Positions 110-4,082 are shown, counted from the first letter of the stretch. The stretch is DNA of 4,236 bases from Escherichia coli (GCF_024298765.1 NZ_CP101215.1), one strand, 5' to 3'. The notes: a model not told the origin generated them from the letters alone. Program-made: numbers and translations.

Positions 110-2329
110 TCACATACTCATGCCCCGGTAATGTCCGGGGCGTCGTTGTTGTTGCCTGTGCTGTTCGTCCCGCTTCCATTCATGCCAGGTCTGATTAAAT
201 CCGAGTTGACGGAAGAGATAATCCGGCATCTCTTCCGGTTTGTTGATGGCAGCAAAAAGCGTGTCCTGACAGCCCTTAAGCCTGAACTGCATCAGCTTCG
301 GTTCCGGTGGGTACGGAGTATCAGCATCACGGTTTATGGCCTCACCGTAACCTGCCAGGTGTATCCCGTTCTCTGTGATGATGCTTACCATCAGATGACT
401 GTAATCCGGCGACGGAAGCGCAAGAACGGGACGCAGCTCGTCCTCCAGGCGCACAAAACCGACAAGCATTTCCTCCGGCCCTTCGCACAACAGCAGATTC
501 AGCGTCCTGCTGTTTCGCTCTGTCGAAAAGACAACGGGCATGAGTTGCTCCGGTGCCGCATAAGCGGTGACGTCCACCCGGTGCGCTGACGGCAGCGGAG
601 AGGCTGCGGGCCTGCGGTCGTCGCTGAAATAAAAATTATCCGGCCAGTGATGCGGCAGCGCCGGAAAACCGTAAGAGGGCCACCCCTGGCGCATCTGTTC
701 CAGTACATGCCGGACCGTCGCACCGGAATACATTCTCACACGCTCAGGCCGCGCCATCGTCTCATGAGATTCTGGCATTCCCTCACGTATATCCGAGACC
801 ATCACAGCCCCGCCTGGCGACAGGTAAACATTCACCGGGTCATGAACACTCTGGGGGTAATGCGCCAGCTCATCACCCCATACCGTGAATTCTCCGGCTC
901 TGTTACTCAGCATCATGTAGCGGGTTATCCTGCCCGTTCCCGGCTCTCTGGCACGCCCCAGCTCCGTAATAACCCCGGCTAATGCCGTTTCTCGGCTCAG
1001 GCGATGGTTATCATGGTGTTTCAGCCGTGCGTCATATTCCTGTTCCTTCCGGCGCGCTTCCGCTTCGGCTTCCTCCCTGCGCCGCTCCGCTTCCCGTGCT
1101 GACAGTTTTTCTTTCAGCTCTGCCATTCCCGGCGAAATCCACGTATTCCACTGCGTTTCAAAGGCCTGACGACGGACGGGAATGTCCCGTTCTTTCACGG
1201 CCCTGTAGGTGCGGAGAAGAGATTCAATCTGTTTCTCGAGTTTCCAGAAGCGGAGTTGTCTTTTGCGGTATTCCGGTTCAGCCCATGTCATCAGGGGAAG
1301 CTCTGACAGGATGGACGCTACCGGACGGGCTTTTCTGAGTCCGGTCATCTCTTTTTCGAGAATATCCCGCTCTTTCACCAGCGCATTCCCCTCACGTTTG
1401 ATGTCGTTTGCCTTCCCGTTCATCGCCACGAACTCCGGTGTCATCTCCCATGCGTTCCCGCATTCCTGCGGCAGTGTGGCAATGAATTCCCGCAGGGTAT
1501 CCGCTGAGGCATTCGCGGCGGGAATGGTCAGATTAAGGGCTTCCGCTGCACGACGTGCGGCATCGCTGAGTTCCCGTTTCCGCACGTTCTCCTGTACCTG
1601 GATGACTGCCAGCCTTGTGCGGGAAACCTGTATTTCCAGGTTAAGGCTGTTAATCAGGCGGTTCTGCTCACCGCGTTCTGTTTCCATGCCCCGTTTTTCC
1701 ATCGCACAGGCAGCCTTTCCGAGGTGAAGGCCCGGCGCTTTCTCCAGTCCCTGACGCTCGTATGAACGATGGTCTATCTCTTCCTGGTAGCCGGCGTTCG
1801 CAAGCGCTCTGTTCGCATGGTCAGCCCATGATGCGCGCCACGTCTCGGCGAGTGCCCGGTCGTTCCAGTCCCTGACCTTTCCTGCGAATCCCGTTTCCCC
1901 GACAGCTCTCGTGGTCAGCATGATGTGTGCATGGGGGTTGGTCCGGTCCATATGATGGAACGCCACATCGGCAATCATGCCCCGACTGACAAAGTTTTCC
2001 CGGACAAAAGCGAGAACGGCCTCCCGTGCGGCCTCGCGGGAAATCTCACGGGGAATGGCGAGTTCAATCTCCCTTGCCAGCTGGGAGTTCCGGCGCTGTT
2101 CGGCTTTCTCGACCGCATTCCAGAGAACGGAACGGTCACCACACCAGGACGGTGCATTCGCAGGGGTGAGAATGACCGCATCATCAACGCCGCGTTTACG
2201 GGTGTAATCGTGGATTAATCCGGTACGGTCATCGGGTATGACAGAGCCGGAACGGTAGGCAGCAGAAGCAACGGCACTGTAGCCGTTTTTTCGCGAAATG
2301 ATTTTCATGCTGAGATGATAAATCGCCAT
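110..2329 (-). CDS. mobA: MobA/MobL-family (MOBQ-type) conjugative relaxase with a long C-terminal extension of unknown function, about 739 aa
   Basis: A continuous 768-codon minus-strand ORF (110..2416) in the supplied track. I place the start at the internal Met (ATG at 2329-2327) because the protein then begins MAIYHLSMKIISRKNGYSAVASAAYRSGS, the conserved N-terminus of MobA/MobL relaxases (compare RSF1010 MobA, MAIYHL...), with the catalytic Tyr region near the N-terminus and a 3-His metal motif HHMDRTNPHAHIML. A WADHANRAL motif and a charged, coiled-coil-like middle section (REAERRREEAEAEARRKEQEYD) follow. The C-terminal roughly 260 residues (about 110..890) have no motif I can assign. 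Stop TGA at 110-112. Established knowledge: the MobA_MobL family signature. Inference: start codon choice. Confidence 0.9.
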   Translation of the reverse strand: MAIYHLSMKIISRKNGYSAVASAAYRSGSVIPDDRTGLIHDYTRKRGVDDAVILTPANAPSWCGDRSVLWNAVEKAEQRRNSQLAREIELAIPREISREAAREAVLAFVRENFVSRGMIADVAFHHMDRTNPHAHIMLTTRAVGETGFAGKVRDWNDRALAETWRASWADHANRALANAGYQEEIDHRSYERQGLEKAPGLHLGKAACAMEKRGMETERGEQNRLINSLNLEIQVSRTRLAVIQVQENVRKRELSDAARRAAEALNLTIPAANASADTLREFIATLPQECGNAWEMTPEFVAMNGKANDIKREGNALVKERDILEKEMTGLRKARPVASILSELPLMTWAEPEYRKRQLRFWKLEKQIESLLRTYRAVKERDIPVRRQAFETQWNTWISPGMAELKEKLSAREAERRREEAEAEARRKEQEYDARLKHHDNHRLSRETALAGVITELGRAREPGTGRITRYMMLSNRAGEFTVWGDELAHYPQSVHDPVNVYLSPGGAVMVSDIREGMPESHETMARPERVRMYSGATVRHVLEQMRQGWPSYGFPALPHHWPDNFYFSDDRRPAASPLPSAHRVDVTAYAAPEQLMPVVFSTERNSRTLNLLLCEGPEEMLVGFVRLEDELRPVLALPSPDYSHLMVSIITENGIHLAGYGEAINRDADTPYPPEPKLMQFRLKGCQDTLFAAINKPEEMPDYLFRQLGFNQTWHEWKRDEQHRQQQRRPGHYRGMSM

Positions 2330-2377
2330 TTCTGCCGTAATGCCTTTTTGCCGTTTTCTTTCAGCCCCGCAGGGCGC

Positions 2378-2425
2378 ACACAATCGAAACGAAGTGAAGA
2401 TTGTATAAGTGCGCACTTCGTGATA
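2378..2425. other. Candidate origin of transfer (oriT) with MOBQ-type nick motif, overlapping the divergent mobA/mobC promoter region
   Basis: Seen in sequence: inverted repeat ACAATC (2380-2385) and GATTGT (2399-2404) with a 13-bp spacer, followed one base later by TAAGTGCG|CAC (2406-2416). This matches the RSF1010/R1162 oriT nick core GTAAGTGCG|CCCT, which I recall from memory. A second inverted repeat, acgaagtg (2389-2396) and cacttcgt (2414-2421), brackets the putative nick. The position between divergent mobA and mobC is the canonical MOBQ arrangement. The strand and exact nick position (predicted between 2413 and 2414) are inferred. Confidence 0.55.
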
Positions 2426-2507: not shown

Positions 2508-2783
2508 ATGAGCAGAACACTCGAACAGAAGATTGCTGAAGCTGAGGCCAGATTGCAGCGCCTGAAGGCGAAGAGCCGGAGCCTGGACACTGCGCAAAAA
2601 GTCATTGTGGGAGCAGCCATGCTGGCGAGGGTACGGAGGCCGGAAGAGGCGCAACTGCGTGCGTTCCTGCTCCAGTTCCTGCGAAAGGAAGTCACAAGAC
2701 AGGCCGATGTGAACCGGCTACAACCACTGATTAACGAGCTGGAGAAGCTACCAAGACCACCTGCGAAACCGCAGAACGGATAA
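2508..2783 (+). CDS. mobC: MobC-family relaxosome accessory protein (91 aa)
   Basis: ORF 2508..2783 with a good RBS (AGGAG 2495-2499). The protein is small and basic, and it contains QKVIVGAAMLARV, which resembles the conserved RKVLVGAMILAKV segment of RSF1010-type MobC (recalled from memory). It is divergent from mobA with the oriT-like sequence in between, as in MOBQ systems. Confidence 0.8.
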   Translation: MSRTLEQKIAEAEARLQRLKAKSRSLDTAQKVIVGAAMLARVRRPEEAQLRAFLLQFLRKEVTRQADVNRLQPLINELEKLPRPPAKPQNG

Positions 2784-2952
2784 GCCCCGGCGCGTAAGTG
2801 CCACATGCACCACCGGACGCCTTTGCGCTTCCTCGCACATTCGCTCGCTACGCTCGGTCATGAGGCTGCGGCGAGCGCTACCACCGCAATCACGAGGAAA
2901 CCAGCGCCATTGCTGGGCGGAACCGGAAAAACCGCAGGAACGCCAACAGCTC

Positions 2953-2974
2953 AAAAAAGCGCCGAAAAGGCGCT
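2953..2974 (-). terminator. Putative rep terminator hairpin (short stem plus T6 on the minus strand)
   Basis: Seen in sequence: plus 2958-2974 forms a-gcgcc-gaaaa-ggcgc-t, a 5 to 6 bp GC stem with a 5-nt loop. On the minus strand it is followed by TTTTTTGAG (plus 2951-2958). It lies 15-35 nt downstream of the rep stop codon (2989-2991). The stem is short, and the element overlaps the presumed origin. Confidence 0.35.
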
Positions 2975-2995
2975 GTTATCTGATAAGGCTATTTG
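2953..2995 (-). other. ColE2-type origin of replication (Rep-primed ori) immediately 3' of rep
   Basis: The minus strand reads CAAATAGCCTTATCAGATAACAGCGCCTTTTCGGCGCTTTTTTGAGC, starting in the last codons of rep. From memory, the ColE2-P9 minimal origin contains AGATAAGCCTTATCAGATAACAGCGCC just downstream of rep; the exact base-by-base match is not verified here. Placement directly after the rep stop fits the known ColE2 architecture. Confidence 0.6.
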
Positions 2996-3897
2996 TGCAT
3001 TGCCCAATTACGGATCGTATTTCGATGTACATCCAGCATCGCCGCAATAGCTTTCTGAGAATATCCATTCTCCAGCATACATAGCGCCATGAAACGCTTG
3101 TCCTCGTAGGCTTCGCCTTTAGCAAGGCCACCTTTCCGGCCTCGAGCGGCCTGTACAGCGGAAAAGCCTTCCGGTGAGAATTTTCTGTGCGTGTATTTCG
3201 CAATGCTCTTGCCAATAGCCCGGCATTCAGCCAGTGAAAGAGGAACGGGAAGCGATGCGTTGTACATTTCGACACGCTGGATCACGGCATCAAGCCACTG
3301 TGAGAATGCTGGCCATCCCTGACGAATCGCTCTGTAAGCCCATTTGCGCGTCATTTCGAACAGGTGGCAGTTTCGCCCCATCCCGTAATGTTTATCGATG
3401 CTACGACGCTCTGAGGCGCTCAAATCGAGATAATCTGCCAGTTCATCGAGGGTATAGGCTTCCTCGCGCCACTCCATCACCTGCCATTCCAGGTGGAACG
3501 GATTTTTGCAAATCAGTCCGCTGTAGTTCACATCAGCACAAAGTTTCTCACACAGCGAACGTTCAATCGCGGCAGCATATTTCAGCGCCTTAACCGACGC
3601 ATCAGGCGCGGTTCTCACGGCGATATTGAGTGCATAGAGCAGGTGAGCGTGTCCGTTCACAGGATTTTTAACGGTGATGTTCGGCGCGGGGGCGTTCCGG
3701 TCGCTCCAGTCAATCGCTGCCCCCTCGCGGTCAACGTCAAAAACCAGCCAGAACTGCGCATGAGGCTGGTTCTGCTGGATGTACCGCGCAAGAAGCGCAC
3801 GCCCTTTGCCGGAGATGCGAAGGCCGAAAGCGAGATCATCCGTGTGATAGGGACGGTGGGGTAAATTTTCTTCGAAGTATTGAAGCGCGGCGCTCAT
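2989..3897 (-). CDS. rep: ColE2-family plasmid replication initiator / plasmid-specific primase Rep (302 aa)
   Basis: ORF 2989..3897 (-). RBS GGAAGGAA about 10 nt upstream of the ATG at 3897-3895; stop TAG at 2989-2991. The protein has long stretches I recognise from ColE2-P9/ColE3 Rep: YIQQNQPHA, DWSDRNAPAPNITVKNPVNGHAHLLYAL, VRTAPDAS, YAAAIERSLCEKLCADVNYSGLICKNP, YTLDELADYLDLSA, LFEMTRKWAYRAIRQGWPAFSQWLDAVIQRVEMYNASLPVPLS, ECRAIGKSIAKYTHRKFSPEGFSAVQAARGRKGG. The C-terminal tail (…ENGYSQKAIAAMLDVHRNTIRNWAMHK) looks like a helix-turn-helix, consistent with origin binding. Confidence 0.92.
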   Translation of the reverse strand: MSAALQYFEENLPHRPYHTDDLAFGLRISGKGRALLARYIQQNQPHAQFWLVFDVDREGAAIDWSDRNAPAPNITVKNPVNGHAHLLYALNIAVRTAPDASVKALKYAAAIERSLCEKLCADVNYSGLICKNPFHLEWQVMEWREEAYTLDELADYLDLSASERRSIDKHYGMGRNCHLFEMTRKWAYRAIRQGWPAFSQWLDAVIQRVEMYNASLPVPLSLAECRAIGKSIAKYTHRKFSPEGFSAVQAARGRKGGLAKGEAYEDKRFMALCMLENGYSQKAIAAMLDVHRNTIRNWAMHK

Positions 3898-3996
3898 GTG
3901 TTACGATTCCTTCCAGGTTATCGACCGACATCGCCCCTGTATTTTCGTGACAGTCTTGCCGGATAGGCACGAATTTCAGGGGCGTTTGTTTTTTCT
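3880..3996 (+). ncRNA. Putative antisense RNA (ColE2 RNA I-like) complementary to the rep mRNA leader and start region
   Basis: Established knowledge: ColE2-type replicons control Rep translation with an antisense RNA of about 115 nt (RNA I) complementary to the rep 5' leader. Seen in sequence: a strong plus-strand terminator (stem 3932-3939 with 3977-3984, then TTTGTTTTTTCT) ends at 3996 inside the rep leader. The 5' end is inferred from the expected length; no convincing promoter was identified by eye. Confidence 0.35.
3932..3996 (+). terminator. Rho-independent terminator (hairpin plus T-run) on the plus strand within the rep leader region
   Basis: Seen in sequence: CGCCCCTG (3932-3939) pairs with CAGGGGCG (3977-3984), a perfect 8-bp GC-rich stem around a 37-nt loop that may fold further. 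It is followed immediately by TTTGTTTTTTCT (3985-3996). Confidence 0.5.
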
Positions 3997-4054
3997 GGCG
4001 CTTACCCTACACCCAAACGCCAAACCCTGTCGATCCTTCCCCAAAACCCGATCC

Positions 4055-4082
4055 ATTTACCATAACTCCCGTTGTACGTACC
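4055..4082 (-). other. Xer (XerC/XerD) site-specific recombination core site, cer/psi-like with 6-bp spacer
   Basis: The minus strand reads GGTACGTACAA-CGGGAG-TTATGGTAAAT. Compared with the ColE1 cer core as I recall it (GGTGCGTACAA-TTAAGGGA-TTATGGTAAAT), the XerD arm is identical and the XerC arm differs at one position. The central region is 6 bp, as in dif and psi, rather than the 8 bp of cer. Confidence 0.6.

What the first reader, a model, noticed from the sequence alone, without database searches (positions are those of the whole stretch)
2953..2995. ColE2-type origin overlaps a terminator-like hairpin at the rep 3' end
The ColE2-like origin sequence begins within the last codons of rep, so rep read-through transcription runs into the origin. 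A short GC hairpin plus T6 between them may terminate rep mRNA, or may be part of the origin structure itself. This is the expected architecture for the family, but it is compact enough that origin function and rep termination may be coupled.
Basis: partly seen in the sequence, partly recalled or inferred. Interest (0 to 1): 0.3.

Follow-up and report, generated by a model that had tools for sequence, protein, structure and literature searches.

The report
ColE2-type origin sharing bases with terminator hairpin
The small plasmid's replication start site sits right at the end of its replication gene and shares four bases with a short terminator-like hairpin; this is the normal layout for ColE2-type plasmids, and relatives show the hairpin travels with the start site.

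Summary
All features lie on the minus strand.

- **rep:** runs 3897..2989 and ends in TAG at 2991..2989.
- **Origin match:** the next 20 bases (2988..2969, CCTTATCAGATAACAGCGCC) match the ColE2-P9 origin 20/20, including the AGA primer site at 2981..2979. The diverged left half of the origin lies inside the last rep codons (about 3001..2989).
- **Hairpin:** AGCGCC-TTTTC-GGCGCT at 2974..2958, RNA folding energy -9.8 kcal/mol, followed by T6 at 2958..2953. Its first four bases are the last four of the 32-bp minimal origin.

ColE2-P9 has the same hairpin in a weaker form. In 80 loci encoding Rep relatives, 33 of 54 distinct origin cores are followed at once by a GC-rich stem, against about 3.5% of random positions. 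The stems show G-C/C-G/A-T swaps, and most have a T-rich tail.

The best reading is a ColE2-type origin whose 3' edge also forms the 5' arm of an intrinsic terminator for transcription leaving rep. The hairpin lies beyond the origin, so it cannot keep RNA polymerase out of it. Published work shows the origin fires without the 3' arm and without transcription, so coupling is at most accessory.

This is an ordinary, known architecture. The conserved hairpin is a modest new detail.

The parts
2989..3897 (-). rep gene (302 aa plus TAG stop at 2991..2989). It encodes a ColE2-type initiator-primase.
   Evidence: ORF list. Pfam Replicase PF03090 E 6e-44, PriCT_1, HTH_23. 81% identity to ColE2-P9 Rep over aa 1-263. 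Residues 170-260 match PDB 3VW4, the ColE2 Rep DNA-binding domain.
2971..3001 (-). Predicted replication origin, the counterpart of the 32-bp ColE2-P9 minimal origin (AATGCACAAATAG + CCTTATCAGATAACAGCG). The left 13 bases lie in the last rep codons and stop codon.
   Evidence: Alignment with ColE2-P9 and with the 'ColE2 minimal origin' sequence in the supplement of PMC3163176. The right 18 bases are identical. The left half is diverged with a 1-base gap. The outer limits are inferred by homology only.
2969..2988 (-). Conserved origin core CCTTATCAGATAACAGCGCC, a 20/20 match to ColE2-P9.
   Evidence: one match in the window, none in 200 shuffles. The core TCAGATRRYAG recurs in 54 of the Rep-homologue loci.
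2979..2981 (-). AGA, the predicted site and sequence of the 3-nt RNA primer. The template TCT is on the plus strand. Leading-strand synthesis would run towards lower coordinates, the same direction as rep transcription.
   Evidence: AGA occurs once in the predicted origin, only on the minus strand. The primer sequence AGA is stated for ColE2-type origins in PMC5304414 and PMC3632715. The direction is my inference from these two facts.
2958..2974 (-). GC-rich hairpin: 5' arm AGCGCC (2974..2969), loop TTTTC (2968..2964), 3' arm GGCGCT (2963..2958). The first 4 bases (2974..2971) are also the last 4 of the minimal origin.
   Evidence: Terminator scan. RNA folding energy -9.8 kcal/mol, DNA -6.8 to -7.2 kcal/mol. 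Homologous hairpin in ColE2-P9. Conserved at this position with compensatory changes in relatives.
2953..2958 (-). T6 tract directly after the stem; the first T pairs with A2974. This is the predicted 3' end of rep mRNA, giving a 3' UTR of about 33-36 nt.
   Evidence: T-rich tails follow the stem in 10 of 19 relatives (at least 6 T in 9 nt) against 2.7% of background windows.

Best explanation
The region is the 3' end of a ColE2-type (class C theta) replicon.

**Origin and priming.** The Rep primase binds the roughly 31-bp origin, whose left half overlaps the last rep codons. Rep melts the origin and makes the primer ppApGpA on the TCT template at 2979-2981. DNA polymerase I then extends the primer in the same direction as rep transcription. 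This is inferred by homology to ColE2-P9.

**Hairpin.** The 6-bp GC hairpin plus T6 that starts 5 bases after the primer site is most likely an intrinsic (Rho-independent) terminator. It would end rep mRNA, and any other transcription crossing the origin, about 35 nt after the stop codon. Its 5' arm reuses the last bases of the origin.

**Consequences.** RNA polymerase therefore always traverses the Rep-binding site before it stops. The terminator protects what lies downstream: the start of the leading strand, a primosome-site-like stretch, and the convergent mobC-like gene. It does not protect the origin. It also gives rep mRNA a stable 3' end.

**What is shown and what is inferred.** Shown: the sequence identity, the hairpin geometry, and its conservation in relatives. 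Inferred: actual termination, the priming site and the direction of replication.
For: **Replicon identity.** Pfam domains. 81% Rep identity to ColE2-P9. 20/20 core match. Homologous leader with an antisense stem-loop and U run. Identical 4234-bp plasmids typed as Col156/MOBQ, a group described as ColE2-like in PMC6856555.

**Terminator features.**
- Stem of 6 pairs, 5 of them G-C, with a 5-base loop and T6; folding energy -9.8 kcal/mol.
- It is on the rep sense strand, 14 nt after the stop codon.
- ColE2-P9 has GCGCC-CTTTT-GGCGT followed by CTTTTT at the same place.

**Conservation in relatives.**
- 33 of 54 distinct origin cores in Rep-homologue loci are followed within 0-2 nt by a stem of at least 5 bp with at least 3 G-C pairs. 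The rate is 3.5% at random positions and 5.4% at other AGC starts.
- Stem positions 3-5 show G-C, C-G, A-T and T-A alternatives. Re-pairing 5' arms with other loci's 3' regions never reached the observed stem score (0 of 1000).
- T-rich tails: 10 of 19 have at least 6 T in 9 nt, against 2.7% of background windows.
- G-U pairs favour the sense strand (17 against 7).
- Hairpins are somewhat stronger where a co-directional ORF ends just upstream (mean -8.7 against -6.6 kcal/mol, p 0.054).
- 57 of 58 origin cores are co-oriented with rep.
Against: - No transcript data exist, so termination is untested.
- The stem is at the short end for E. coli terminators.
- Terminator-like patterns are not over-represented in this window (9 found against 5.0 +/- 2.6).
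- The covariance-model count of pairs was inconclusive. 65.9% of cells paired against 63.7% in shuffles, and sliding the register by +2 scored the same, because the arms are C runs and G runs.
- The tests do not correct for shared ancestry.
- T tracts are missing in the GC-rich Halomonas-type loci (L029, L035, L040, L074).
- The hairpin keeps a fixed position next to the core even where no co-directional gene ends upstream (L025, L040), and in the one locus with an inverted origin (L041). That fits a role tied to the origin better than a plain gene terminator.
- A very common close relative (L002) and L007 have little or no hairpin, so it is dispensable in some lineages.
Confidence: 0.6

Rival explanations
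1. The hairpin acts at the DNA level as an accessory part of the origin. Leading-strand synthesis starts at AGA and displaces the rep-sense strand. The inverted repeat 5 bases downstream folds in that displaced strand. This would stabilise the young D-loop against re-annealing, or mark the 3' limit of Rep-driven melting. Its resemblance to a terminator would then be secondary.
For: - The stem keeps a fixed position directly after the core's AG in diverse taxa, whatever the distance from the rep stop (-5 to about +1100 nt).
- It stays with the origin's polarity in the single inverted case, L041.
- It persists where the upstream gene is on the other strand (L021, L025, L040).
- Several GC-rich loci have the stem without any T tract.
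- The hairpin also folds with DNA parameters (-6.8 kcal/mol).
- The 38-nt minimal ColE2 origin, which lacks the 3' arm, gave small colonies. A 470-bp fragment behaved normally (PMC3163176).
Against: - The minimal origin without the 3' arm still replicates, so the hairpin is not essential.
- T-rich tails are strongly enriched, which a DNA hairpin does not predict.
- G-T pairs are common in the stems, and these weaken DNA hairpins more than RNA hairpins.
- L002 and L007 lack the hairpin.
- A 6-bp stem is too short for cruciform extrusion (my own knowledge).
- The better performance of the 470-bp fragment could come from any flanking sequence.
Confidence: 0.2
2. The element works as a cis-coupling device like the CIS region of IncFII/IncB plasmids. 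RNA polymerase pausing or terminating at the hairpin holds the nascent rep mRNA, and the Rep being translated from it, next to the origin. New Rep would then load preferentially on the plasmid that made it.
For: - The origin lies at the very end of the rep transcription unit and is co-oriented with it in 57 of 58 cases.
- In this window the T tract is only about 35 nt past the stop codon.
- Precedent from my own knowledge: terminators in the CIS regions of R1 and pMU720 are needed for cis action of RepA.
Against: - ColE2 Rep works efficiently in trans from the chromosome or from another plasmid (PMC3163176).
- In vitro initiation needs no RNA polymerase (PMC4980987).
- The hairpin lies after the origin, not between rep and the origin as in CIS.
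- Some loci have the origin hundreds of bases from rep, with an oppositely oriented gene in between (L015, L017, L021, L025).
Confidence: 0.07
3. The hairpin is a bidirectional terminator that mainly stops the convergent mobC-like transcript (ORF 2508-2783, plus strand) before it enters the origin and runs antisense into rep.
For: - An A6 run precedes the hairpin on the plus strand, giving the A-tract/hairpin/T-tract symmetry typical of bidirectional terminators.
- The same convergent 91-aa gene is present in ColE2-P9.
Against: - On the plus strand the stem is followed by GTTATCTG, with only 4 T in 8, and the scan did not call it.
- That tail is fixed by the origin core, not by terminator needs.
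- G-U asymmetry favours the rep-sense strand.
- The hairpin is conserved in relatives that have quite different downstream genes.
Confidence: 0.08

Closest known systems
ColE2-P9 / ColE3-CA38 origin and Rep primase (class C theta replicons)
   Same: - Rep N-terminal primase and PriCT modules are 81% identical.
- The origin abuts or overlaps the rep stop codon.
- The right half of the origin, including the AGA primer site, is identical.
- A GC hairpin and T run sit at the same position.
- The leader and antisense-RNA region is homologous.
   Different: - The last ~40 residues of Rep form a different helix-turn-helix (HTH_23-type...NTIRNWAMHK) and do not align with the ColE2-P9 C-terminus.
- Matching this, the left half of the origin is diverged: CACAAATAG against ACCAGATAAG, one base shorter, with the left CAGATAA repeat degenerate.
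- The hairpin here is stronger: 6 bp all Watson-Crick at -9.8 kcal/mol, against 5 bp including a G-U pair at -6.9 kcal/mol.
Col156 / MOBQ4-2 small mobilisable plasmids of Enterobacteriaceae (PMC6856555)
   Same: Plasmids of 4234 bp that match the 221-bp rep-3'/origin query (2880-3100) at 100% occur in E. coli and Salmonella and are typed Col156, MOBQ. They share the mobA / oriT / mobC-like layout and a cer-like site.
   Different: None for the sequence itself. The public records do not annotate the origin or the hairpin.
Canonical intrinsic (Rho-independent) terminators
   Same: A GC-rich stem, a short loop and an immediately following U tract, placed just after a stop codon.
   Different: The stem is short at 6 bp. 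Its 5' arm is fixed by an overlapping DNA function, the 3' edge of the origin. Activity is untested.
CIS regions of IncFII (R1) and IncB (pMU720) replicons (recalled from my own knowledge)
   Same: A transcription stop signal close to both the 3' end of rep and the origin, which raises the idea that rep expression and origin use are coupled.
   Different: In those plasmids the terminator lies between repA and the origin, and RepA is cis-acting. Here the hairpin is distal to the origin, and ColE2 Rep acts in trans.
RepA-PFP replicons of Pseudomonas (PMC5304414)
   Same: A ColE2-like origin with the AGA primer sequence, inside or just after the 3' end of rep. The Pseudomonas loci fetched here carry the same core followed by AGCACCC-N5-GGGTGTT and a T/C-rich tail.
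   Different: Larger Rep proteins, different control modules and different stem sequences.

Membership tests
ColE2-type (class C theta) replicon / origin | Initiator is an AEP-type primase (Pfam Replicase PF03090) with a PriCT module and a C-terminal DNA-binding helix-turn-helix | tested here: met
   PF03090 E 6e-44, PriCT_1 E 2e-5, HTH_23 E 3e-7; 81% identity to ColE2-P9 Rep; match to PDB 3VW4.
ColE2-type (class C theta) replicon / origin | Short origin placed at or overlapping the 3' end of rep, in the same orientation | tested here: met
   The core starts 1 base after the TAG stop, and the left half lies in the last codons. The same arrangement holds in most relatives.
ColE2-type (class C theta) replicon / origin | Conserved core containing the primer sequence AGA (TCAGATAAC) | tested here: met
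   20/20 identity to ColE2-P9 over CCTTATCAGATAACAGCGCC. The feature is described in PMC5304414 and PMC3632715.
ColE2-type (class C theta) replicon / origin | Two direct repeats 5'-CAGATAA-3' (L and R) | tested here: inconclusive
   The R repeat is intact (2982..2976). The L position reads CAAATAG (5 of 7) with spacing one base shorter. The same variant is seen in relatives whose Rep has the same C-terminal type (L005, L002, L029).
ColE2-type (class C theta) replicon / origin | Antisense RNA (RNAI) control region in the rep leader | tested here: met
   The leader aligns with ColE2-P9. The plus strand at 3900-4000 folds into a long stem-loop followed by GUUUGUUUUUU, with z-score -3.1. This rests on homology and structure only; no expression was tested.
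ColE2-type (class C theta) replicon / origin | Rep-dependent synthesis of ppApGpA at the origin and Pol I-dependent unidirectional replication | not testable with these tools
   Requires an in vitro priming or replication assay.
Intrinsic (Rho-independent) terminator | GC-rich stem-loop immediately followed by a U tract on the transcribed strand | tested here: met
   (6 pairs, 5 G-C, loop of 5, T6). (-9.8 kcal/mol).
Intrinsic (Rho-independent) terminator | Located downstream of a gene on the same strand | tested here: met
   The stem starts 14 nt after the rep stop codon.
Intrinsic (Rho-independent) terminator | Produces RNA 3' ends and reduces read-through | not testable with these tools
   No transcript data are available. 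Needs 3' RACE, Term-seq or a reporter assay.
Intrinsic (Rho-independent) terminator | Stem pairing and T tract conserved in homologous positions | tested here: inconclusive
   The anchored analysis is positive: 33 of 54 against 3.5%, permutation 0 of 1000, and T tracts in 10 of 19 against 2.7%. The covariance-model pair count is not distinguishable from a slid register. T tracts are absent in GC-rich lineages. None of these tests corrects for phylogeny.
CIS-type rep-origin coupling element (IncFII / IncB) | Terminator lies between rep and the origin | tested here: not met
   The order on the rep strand is stop codon, then origin core, then hairpin.
CIS-type rep-origin coupling element (IncFII / IncB) | Initiator acts preferentially in cis | not testable with these tools
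   Published use of ColE2 Rep in trans argues against strict cis action (PMC3163176).

The most novel reading that the evidence does not exclude
The GC hairpin directly after the primer site is a conserved accessory element of ColE2-type origins in general, not a leftover gene terminator. In effect it would be a fourth subregion. It keeps a fixed register with the core across Enterobacterales, Pseudomonas, Aeromonas, Vibrionaceae and MAG-borne plasmids. It could act either on the displaced DNA strand as a D-loop lock, or as a built-in terminator that clears RNA polymerase from the first bases of the leading strand. It may explain why 32-38-bp minimal origins replicate poorly compared with longer fragments.
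Probability: 0.25. Interest if true: 0.45.

Novelty: new member of a known kind. Interest (0 to 1): 0.22.

Why it matters
**Annotation.** Identical 4.2-kb Col156/MOBQ4 plasmids are common in E. coli and Salmonella, and public records leave their origin unannotated. This work places the origin, the primer site and the likely end of rep mRNA to the base.

**Comparative result.** The hairpin co-travels with the origin core and changes by compensatory substitutions. This gives a cheap, testable idea about why very short ColE2 origins used in synthetic biology are less robust than longer fragments.

**Specificity.** The different Rep C-terminus paired with a different left half of the origin is a natural example of initiator and origin specificity being swapped together.

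None of this changes how the family is understood.

Tried and rejected
1. **Primary ColE2 papers.** I tried to read Yagura 2006, Hiraga 1994 and Itou 2015. None is held. The exact published limits of subregions I-III, and any earlier mention of the hairpin, could not be checked. The minimal-origin sequence came from the supplement of PMC3163176.
2. **The 470-bp ColE2 origin fragment.** Its sequence in that supplement is truncated, so I could not tell whether it includes the hairpin.
3. **A broad literature search** for ColE2 with terminator or hairpin terms was badly designed and returned nothing relevant. The Psychrobacter and Aeromonas plasmid papers do not mention a hairpin.
4. **MAFFT alignment of origin flanks** came out ungapped and left the 3' arms out of register. 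A covariance model built on it gave a pair count that a +2 slide matches. I treat this as inconclusive, not as support.
5. **A longer RNA structure** pairing the origin core with the sequence after the T run appears in the minimum-energy fold but has a z-score of only -1.5. Rejected as incidental.
6. **Rfam** has no family for this region.
7. **Bidirectional terminator for the convergent gene.** The plus-strand tail has only 4 T in 8 and was not called.
8. **Dinucleotide shuffles of 28-nt segments** were a weak control. Only 26 of 58 reached p <= 0.05, because G/C runs survive shuffling. I replaced this with positional background and cross-pairing tests.

Full report
**What the window is**

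The 4236-bp window is a whole small mobilisable plasmid, or nearly so.
- The 221-bp rep-3'/origin stretch (2880-3100) is 100% identical to 4234-bp plasmids of E. coli and Salmonella. One of these is typed Col156 / MOBQ.
- The minus strand carries a MobA/MobL relaxase (110..2416, Pfam E 3e-70) and a 302-aa Rep (3897..2989). Rep has a Replicase PF03090 domain (E 6e-44), PriCT_1 and a C-terminal HTH_23.
- PMC6856555 describes this plasmid group (MOBQ4-2, Col156) as ColE2-like. It states that the ColE2 origin is 32 bp long and lies just downstream of rep.

**Checking the observation**

Read on the minus strand, the end of rep is:

...AAT TGG GCA ATG CAC AAA TAG CCTTATCAGATAACAGCGCCTTTTCGGCGCTTTTTTGAGCTG.

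- The stop codon is at 2991..2989.
- The scan finds a stem at 2974..2958 (AGCGCC TTTTC GGCGCT; 6 pairs, 5 of them G-C) followed by T6. Its RNA folding energy is -9.8 kcal/mol.
- The finding's coordinates (2953-2995) run exactly from the last T of the tract to the last two rep codons.
- Taken alone the pattern is not remarkable. The window has 9 terminator-like sites against 5.0 +/- 2.6 in shuffles, and the local fold has a z-score of -1.5.

**Is it a ColE2-type origin?**

I fetched pColE2-P9 (NZ_KY348421.1). Its rep ends ...GCAAAATGA, followed by GACCAGATAAGCCTTATCAGATAACAGCGCCCTTTTGGCGTCTTTTTGAGCAG. The fragment used as the 'ColE2 minimal origin' by Kittleson et al. is aaaatgagaccagataagccttatcagataacagcgcc (PMC3163176 supplement).

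- The window matches the right part, CCTTATCAGATAACAGCGCC, at 20 of 20 bases. This sequence occurs once in the window and never in 200 shuffles, even with three mismatches allowed.
- The left part is diverged: AATGCACAAATAG against TGAGACCAGATAAG, one base shorter. It lies in the last rep codons.
- That divergence tracks the protein. Rep is 81% identical to ColE2-P9 Rep over residues 1-263, but the last ~40 residues do not align. They belong to a different helix-turn-helix type that several relatives share.
- The solved ColE2 Rep DNA-binding domain (3VW4) matches only residues 170-260.
- The rep leader is homologous to that of ColE2-P9. Its antisense strand folds into a long stem-loop with a U run, as expected for the RNAI-type regulator.

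The family assignment is therefore sound. The one soft point is the degenerate left CAGATAA repeat.

**Geometry**

The primer of ColE2-type origins is AGA (PMC5304414; PMC3632715).
- In the predicted origin AGA occurs once, on the rep-sense strand at 2981..2979, and not on the other strand. The template is therefore the plus strand. By inference, the leading strand grows in the direction of rep transcription, straight into the hairpin, which starts 5 bases later.
- The hairpin's first four bases (2974..2971) are the last four of the 32-bp minimal origin.
- The hairpin is beyond the origin, not between rep and the origin. RNA polymerase reading out of rep crosses the whole Rep-binding site before it reaches the T tract.

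**Comparative evidence**

I aligned diverse Rep proteins and fetched 80 loci from one-genome-per-species contigs.
- The core TCAGATRRYAG was found in 54 loci, 59 instances with complete flanks and 58 of them unique. All but one (L041) are co-oriented with rep. They lie from -5 nt (the stop codon sits inside the core in L072) to about +1100 nt from the rep stop.
- In most, the bases right after the core form a short GC-rich hairpin whose sequence differs between lineages. Examples are AGCGCC/GGCGCT (window), GCGCC/GGCGT (ColE2-P9), AGCCCC/GGGGCT (Xenorhabdus and others), AGCACCC/GGGTGTT (many Pseudomonas), AGCCT/AGGCT (P. syringae), AGCCCT/AGGGCT and CGCCCGC/GCGGGTG.
- 33 of 54 distinct regions have a stem of at least 5 bp with at least 3 G-C pairs starting within 0-2 nt of the core's AG. 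The rate is 3.5% at random positions in the same loci and 5.4% at other AGC starts.
- With the 5' arm anchored by the core, stem position 3 shows G-C, C-G and A-T, and positions 4-5 show C-G, T-A and A-T. Re-pairing 5' arms with other loci's 3' regions never reached the observed mean stem score (5.36 against 3.84 +/- 0.38; 0 of 1000).
- T-rich tails follow the stem far more often than background: 10 of 19 have at least 6 T in 9 nt, against 2.7%.

These tests ignore shared ancestry. The more formal route, a covariance-model alignment followed by pair counting, was inconclusive. The arms are runs of C and G, so a register slid by +2 scores as well as the true one.

**Terminator or origin part?**

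For a terminator:
- T tracts are enriched after the stems.
- G-U pairs favour the rep-sense strand (17 loci against 7, p 0.06).
- Hairpins are slightly stronger where a co-directional ORF ends just upstream (-8.7 against -6.6 kcal/mol, p 0.054).

For a role tied to the origin:
- The stem's register relative to the core is invariant.
- It persists where the gene upstream is on the other strand (L021, L025, L040).
- It follows the origin's polarity in the one inverted case (L041).
- Several GC-rich loci have the stem without a T tract.

Against any essential role:
- The minimal origin lacks the 3' arm yet replicates with Rep in trans.
- Rep, Pol I and SSB suffice in vitro (PMC4980987).
- A very common close relative (L002) and L007 have little or no hairpin.

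One hint of an accessory role is that the 38-nt origin gave small colonies whereas a 470-bp fragment behaved normally. The truncated supplement does not show whether that fragment includes the hairpin.

**Conclusion**

The most likely account (about 0.6) is a ColE2-type origin whose 3' edge doubles as the 5' arm of an intrinsic terminator for the rep transcription unit. The main rival (about 0.2) is a DNA-level accessory role for the hairpin in the displaced strand. CIS-like cis-coupling and a bidirectional terminator for the convergent gene are less likely.

The architecture is the known one for the family and the plasmid is already in public databases. The new details are modest: the family-wide conserved hairpin and the swapped Rep C-terminus with its matching origin left half.

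Noticed in passing
window 2992-3120 (-) and 2989-3001 (-): The last ~40 residues of Rep (AYEDKRFMALCMLENGYSQKAIAAMLDVHRNTIRNWAMHK, HTH_23-type) are unrelated to the ColE2-P9 C-terminus (…SARSLKPWEALGISRATYYRKLK…). The left half of the origin differs in step with this. Relatives fall into at least these two C-terminal types on an otherwise about 97% identical N-terminal body. This suggests that the DNA-binding tail and the origin's left half are exchanged as one module.
   Followed up: partly
window 2823-2880 (-): About 75 nt downstream of the T tract, on the strand that leading-strand synthesis would displace, lies a stretch that is 48/58 identical to the pBR322/pUC sequence ...CCGCTCGCCGCAGCCGAACGACCGAGCGCAGCGAGTCAGTGAGCGAGGAAGCGGAA. 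The region matches more than 5000 plasmid records and is unannotated in them. It may be the lagging-strand priming signal of this replicon.
   Followed up: partly
window 3900-4000 (+), 3862-3985 (-): The strand antisense to the rep leader folds into a long stem-loop (-34.2 kcal/mol, z-score -3.1) ending in GUUUGUUUUUU. This fits a ColE2 RNAI-type antisense regulator, and the leader aligns with that of ColE2-P9 apart from a 29-nt indel. Rfam gives only a sub-threshold hit to PK-repBA (28.8 bits against a gathering score of 45).
   Followed up: partly
window 4055-4082 (-): A cer-like Xer recombination site, GGTACGTACAA-CGGGAG-TTATGGTAAAT, lies upstream of the rep control region. I recognised it by eye against the ColE1 cer core as I recall it. 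PMC6856555 says MOBQ4-2 plasmids carry a cer-like site.
   Followed up: no
window 110-2416 (-), 2417-2507, 2508-2783 (+): This is the MobA/MobL relaxase. The listed GTG start at 2416 is probably too early; MAIYHLSMK... begins near 2329. A divergent 91-aa ORF with no Pfam hit is probably the mobC-like accessory gene. According to PMC6856555, oriT should lie between the two. The same 91-aa gene is convergent with rep in pColE2-P9.
   Followed up: no
L021 2880-3130; L007, L008, L053, L056, L064, L073: Several loci carry two origin cores, and L021 has three in tandem at 94-bp spacing, each with its own hairpin. Many distal copies are preceded by a short ORF whose stop codon sits where a rep stop would be. 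They look like remnants of rep 3' ends that moved together with their origin.
   Followed up: partly
L077 1774-1823, L079 2059-2125, L080 1445-1494: The Psychrobacter origins lack the tight hairpin. Instead they have a longer inverted repeat that brackets the whole core, AGCCTAA...TTAGGCT. In L077 it is CTAAATCAGAT...ATCTGATTTAG.
   Followed up: no
L041 1272-1317 (-); L072 2163-2212: L041 (Pseudomonas fragi) is the only locus where the origin is inverted relative to rep, and its hairpin stays on the origin's own 3' side. In L072 the rep stop codon TAA lies inside the origin core itself, TCAGA-TAA-CAG.
   Followed up: no
P0001; L003, L004, L010, L038, L054: Near-identical copies of this rep (92-99%) occur in assemblies labelled Epichloe bromicola (a fungus), a Bacteroidetes MAG, Acinetobacter idrijaensis, Moraxella, Rhizobium lusitanum and Clostridium. 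Most sit on tiny or low-coverage contigs. These look like contamination of those assemblies by enterobacterial plasmid DNA rather than true hosts.
   Followed up: no
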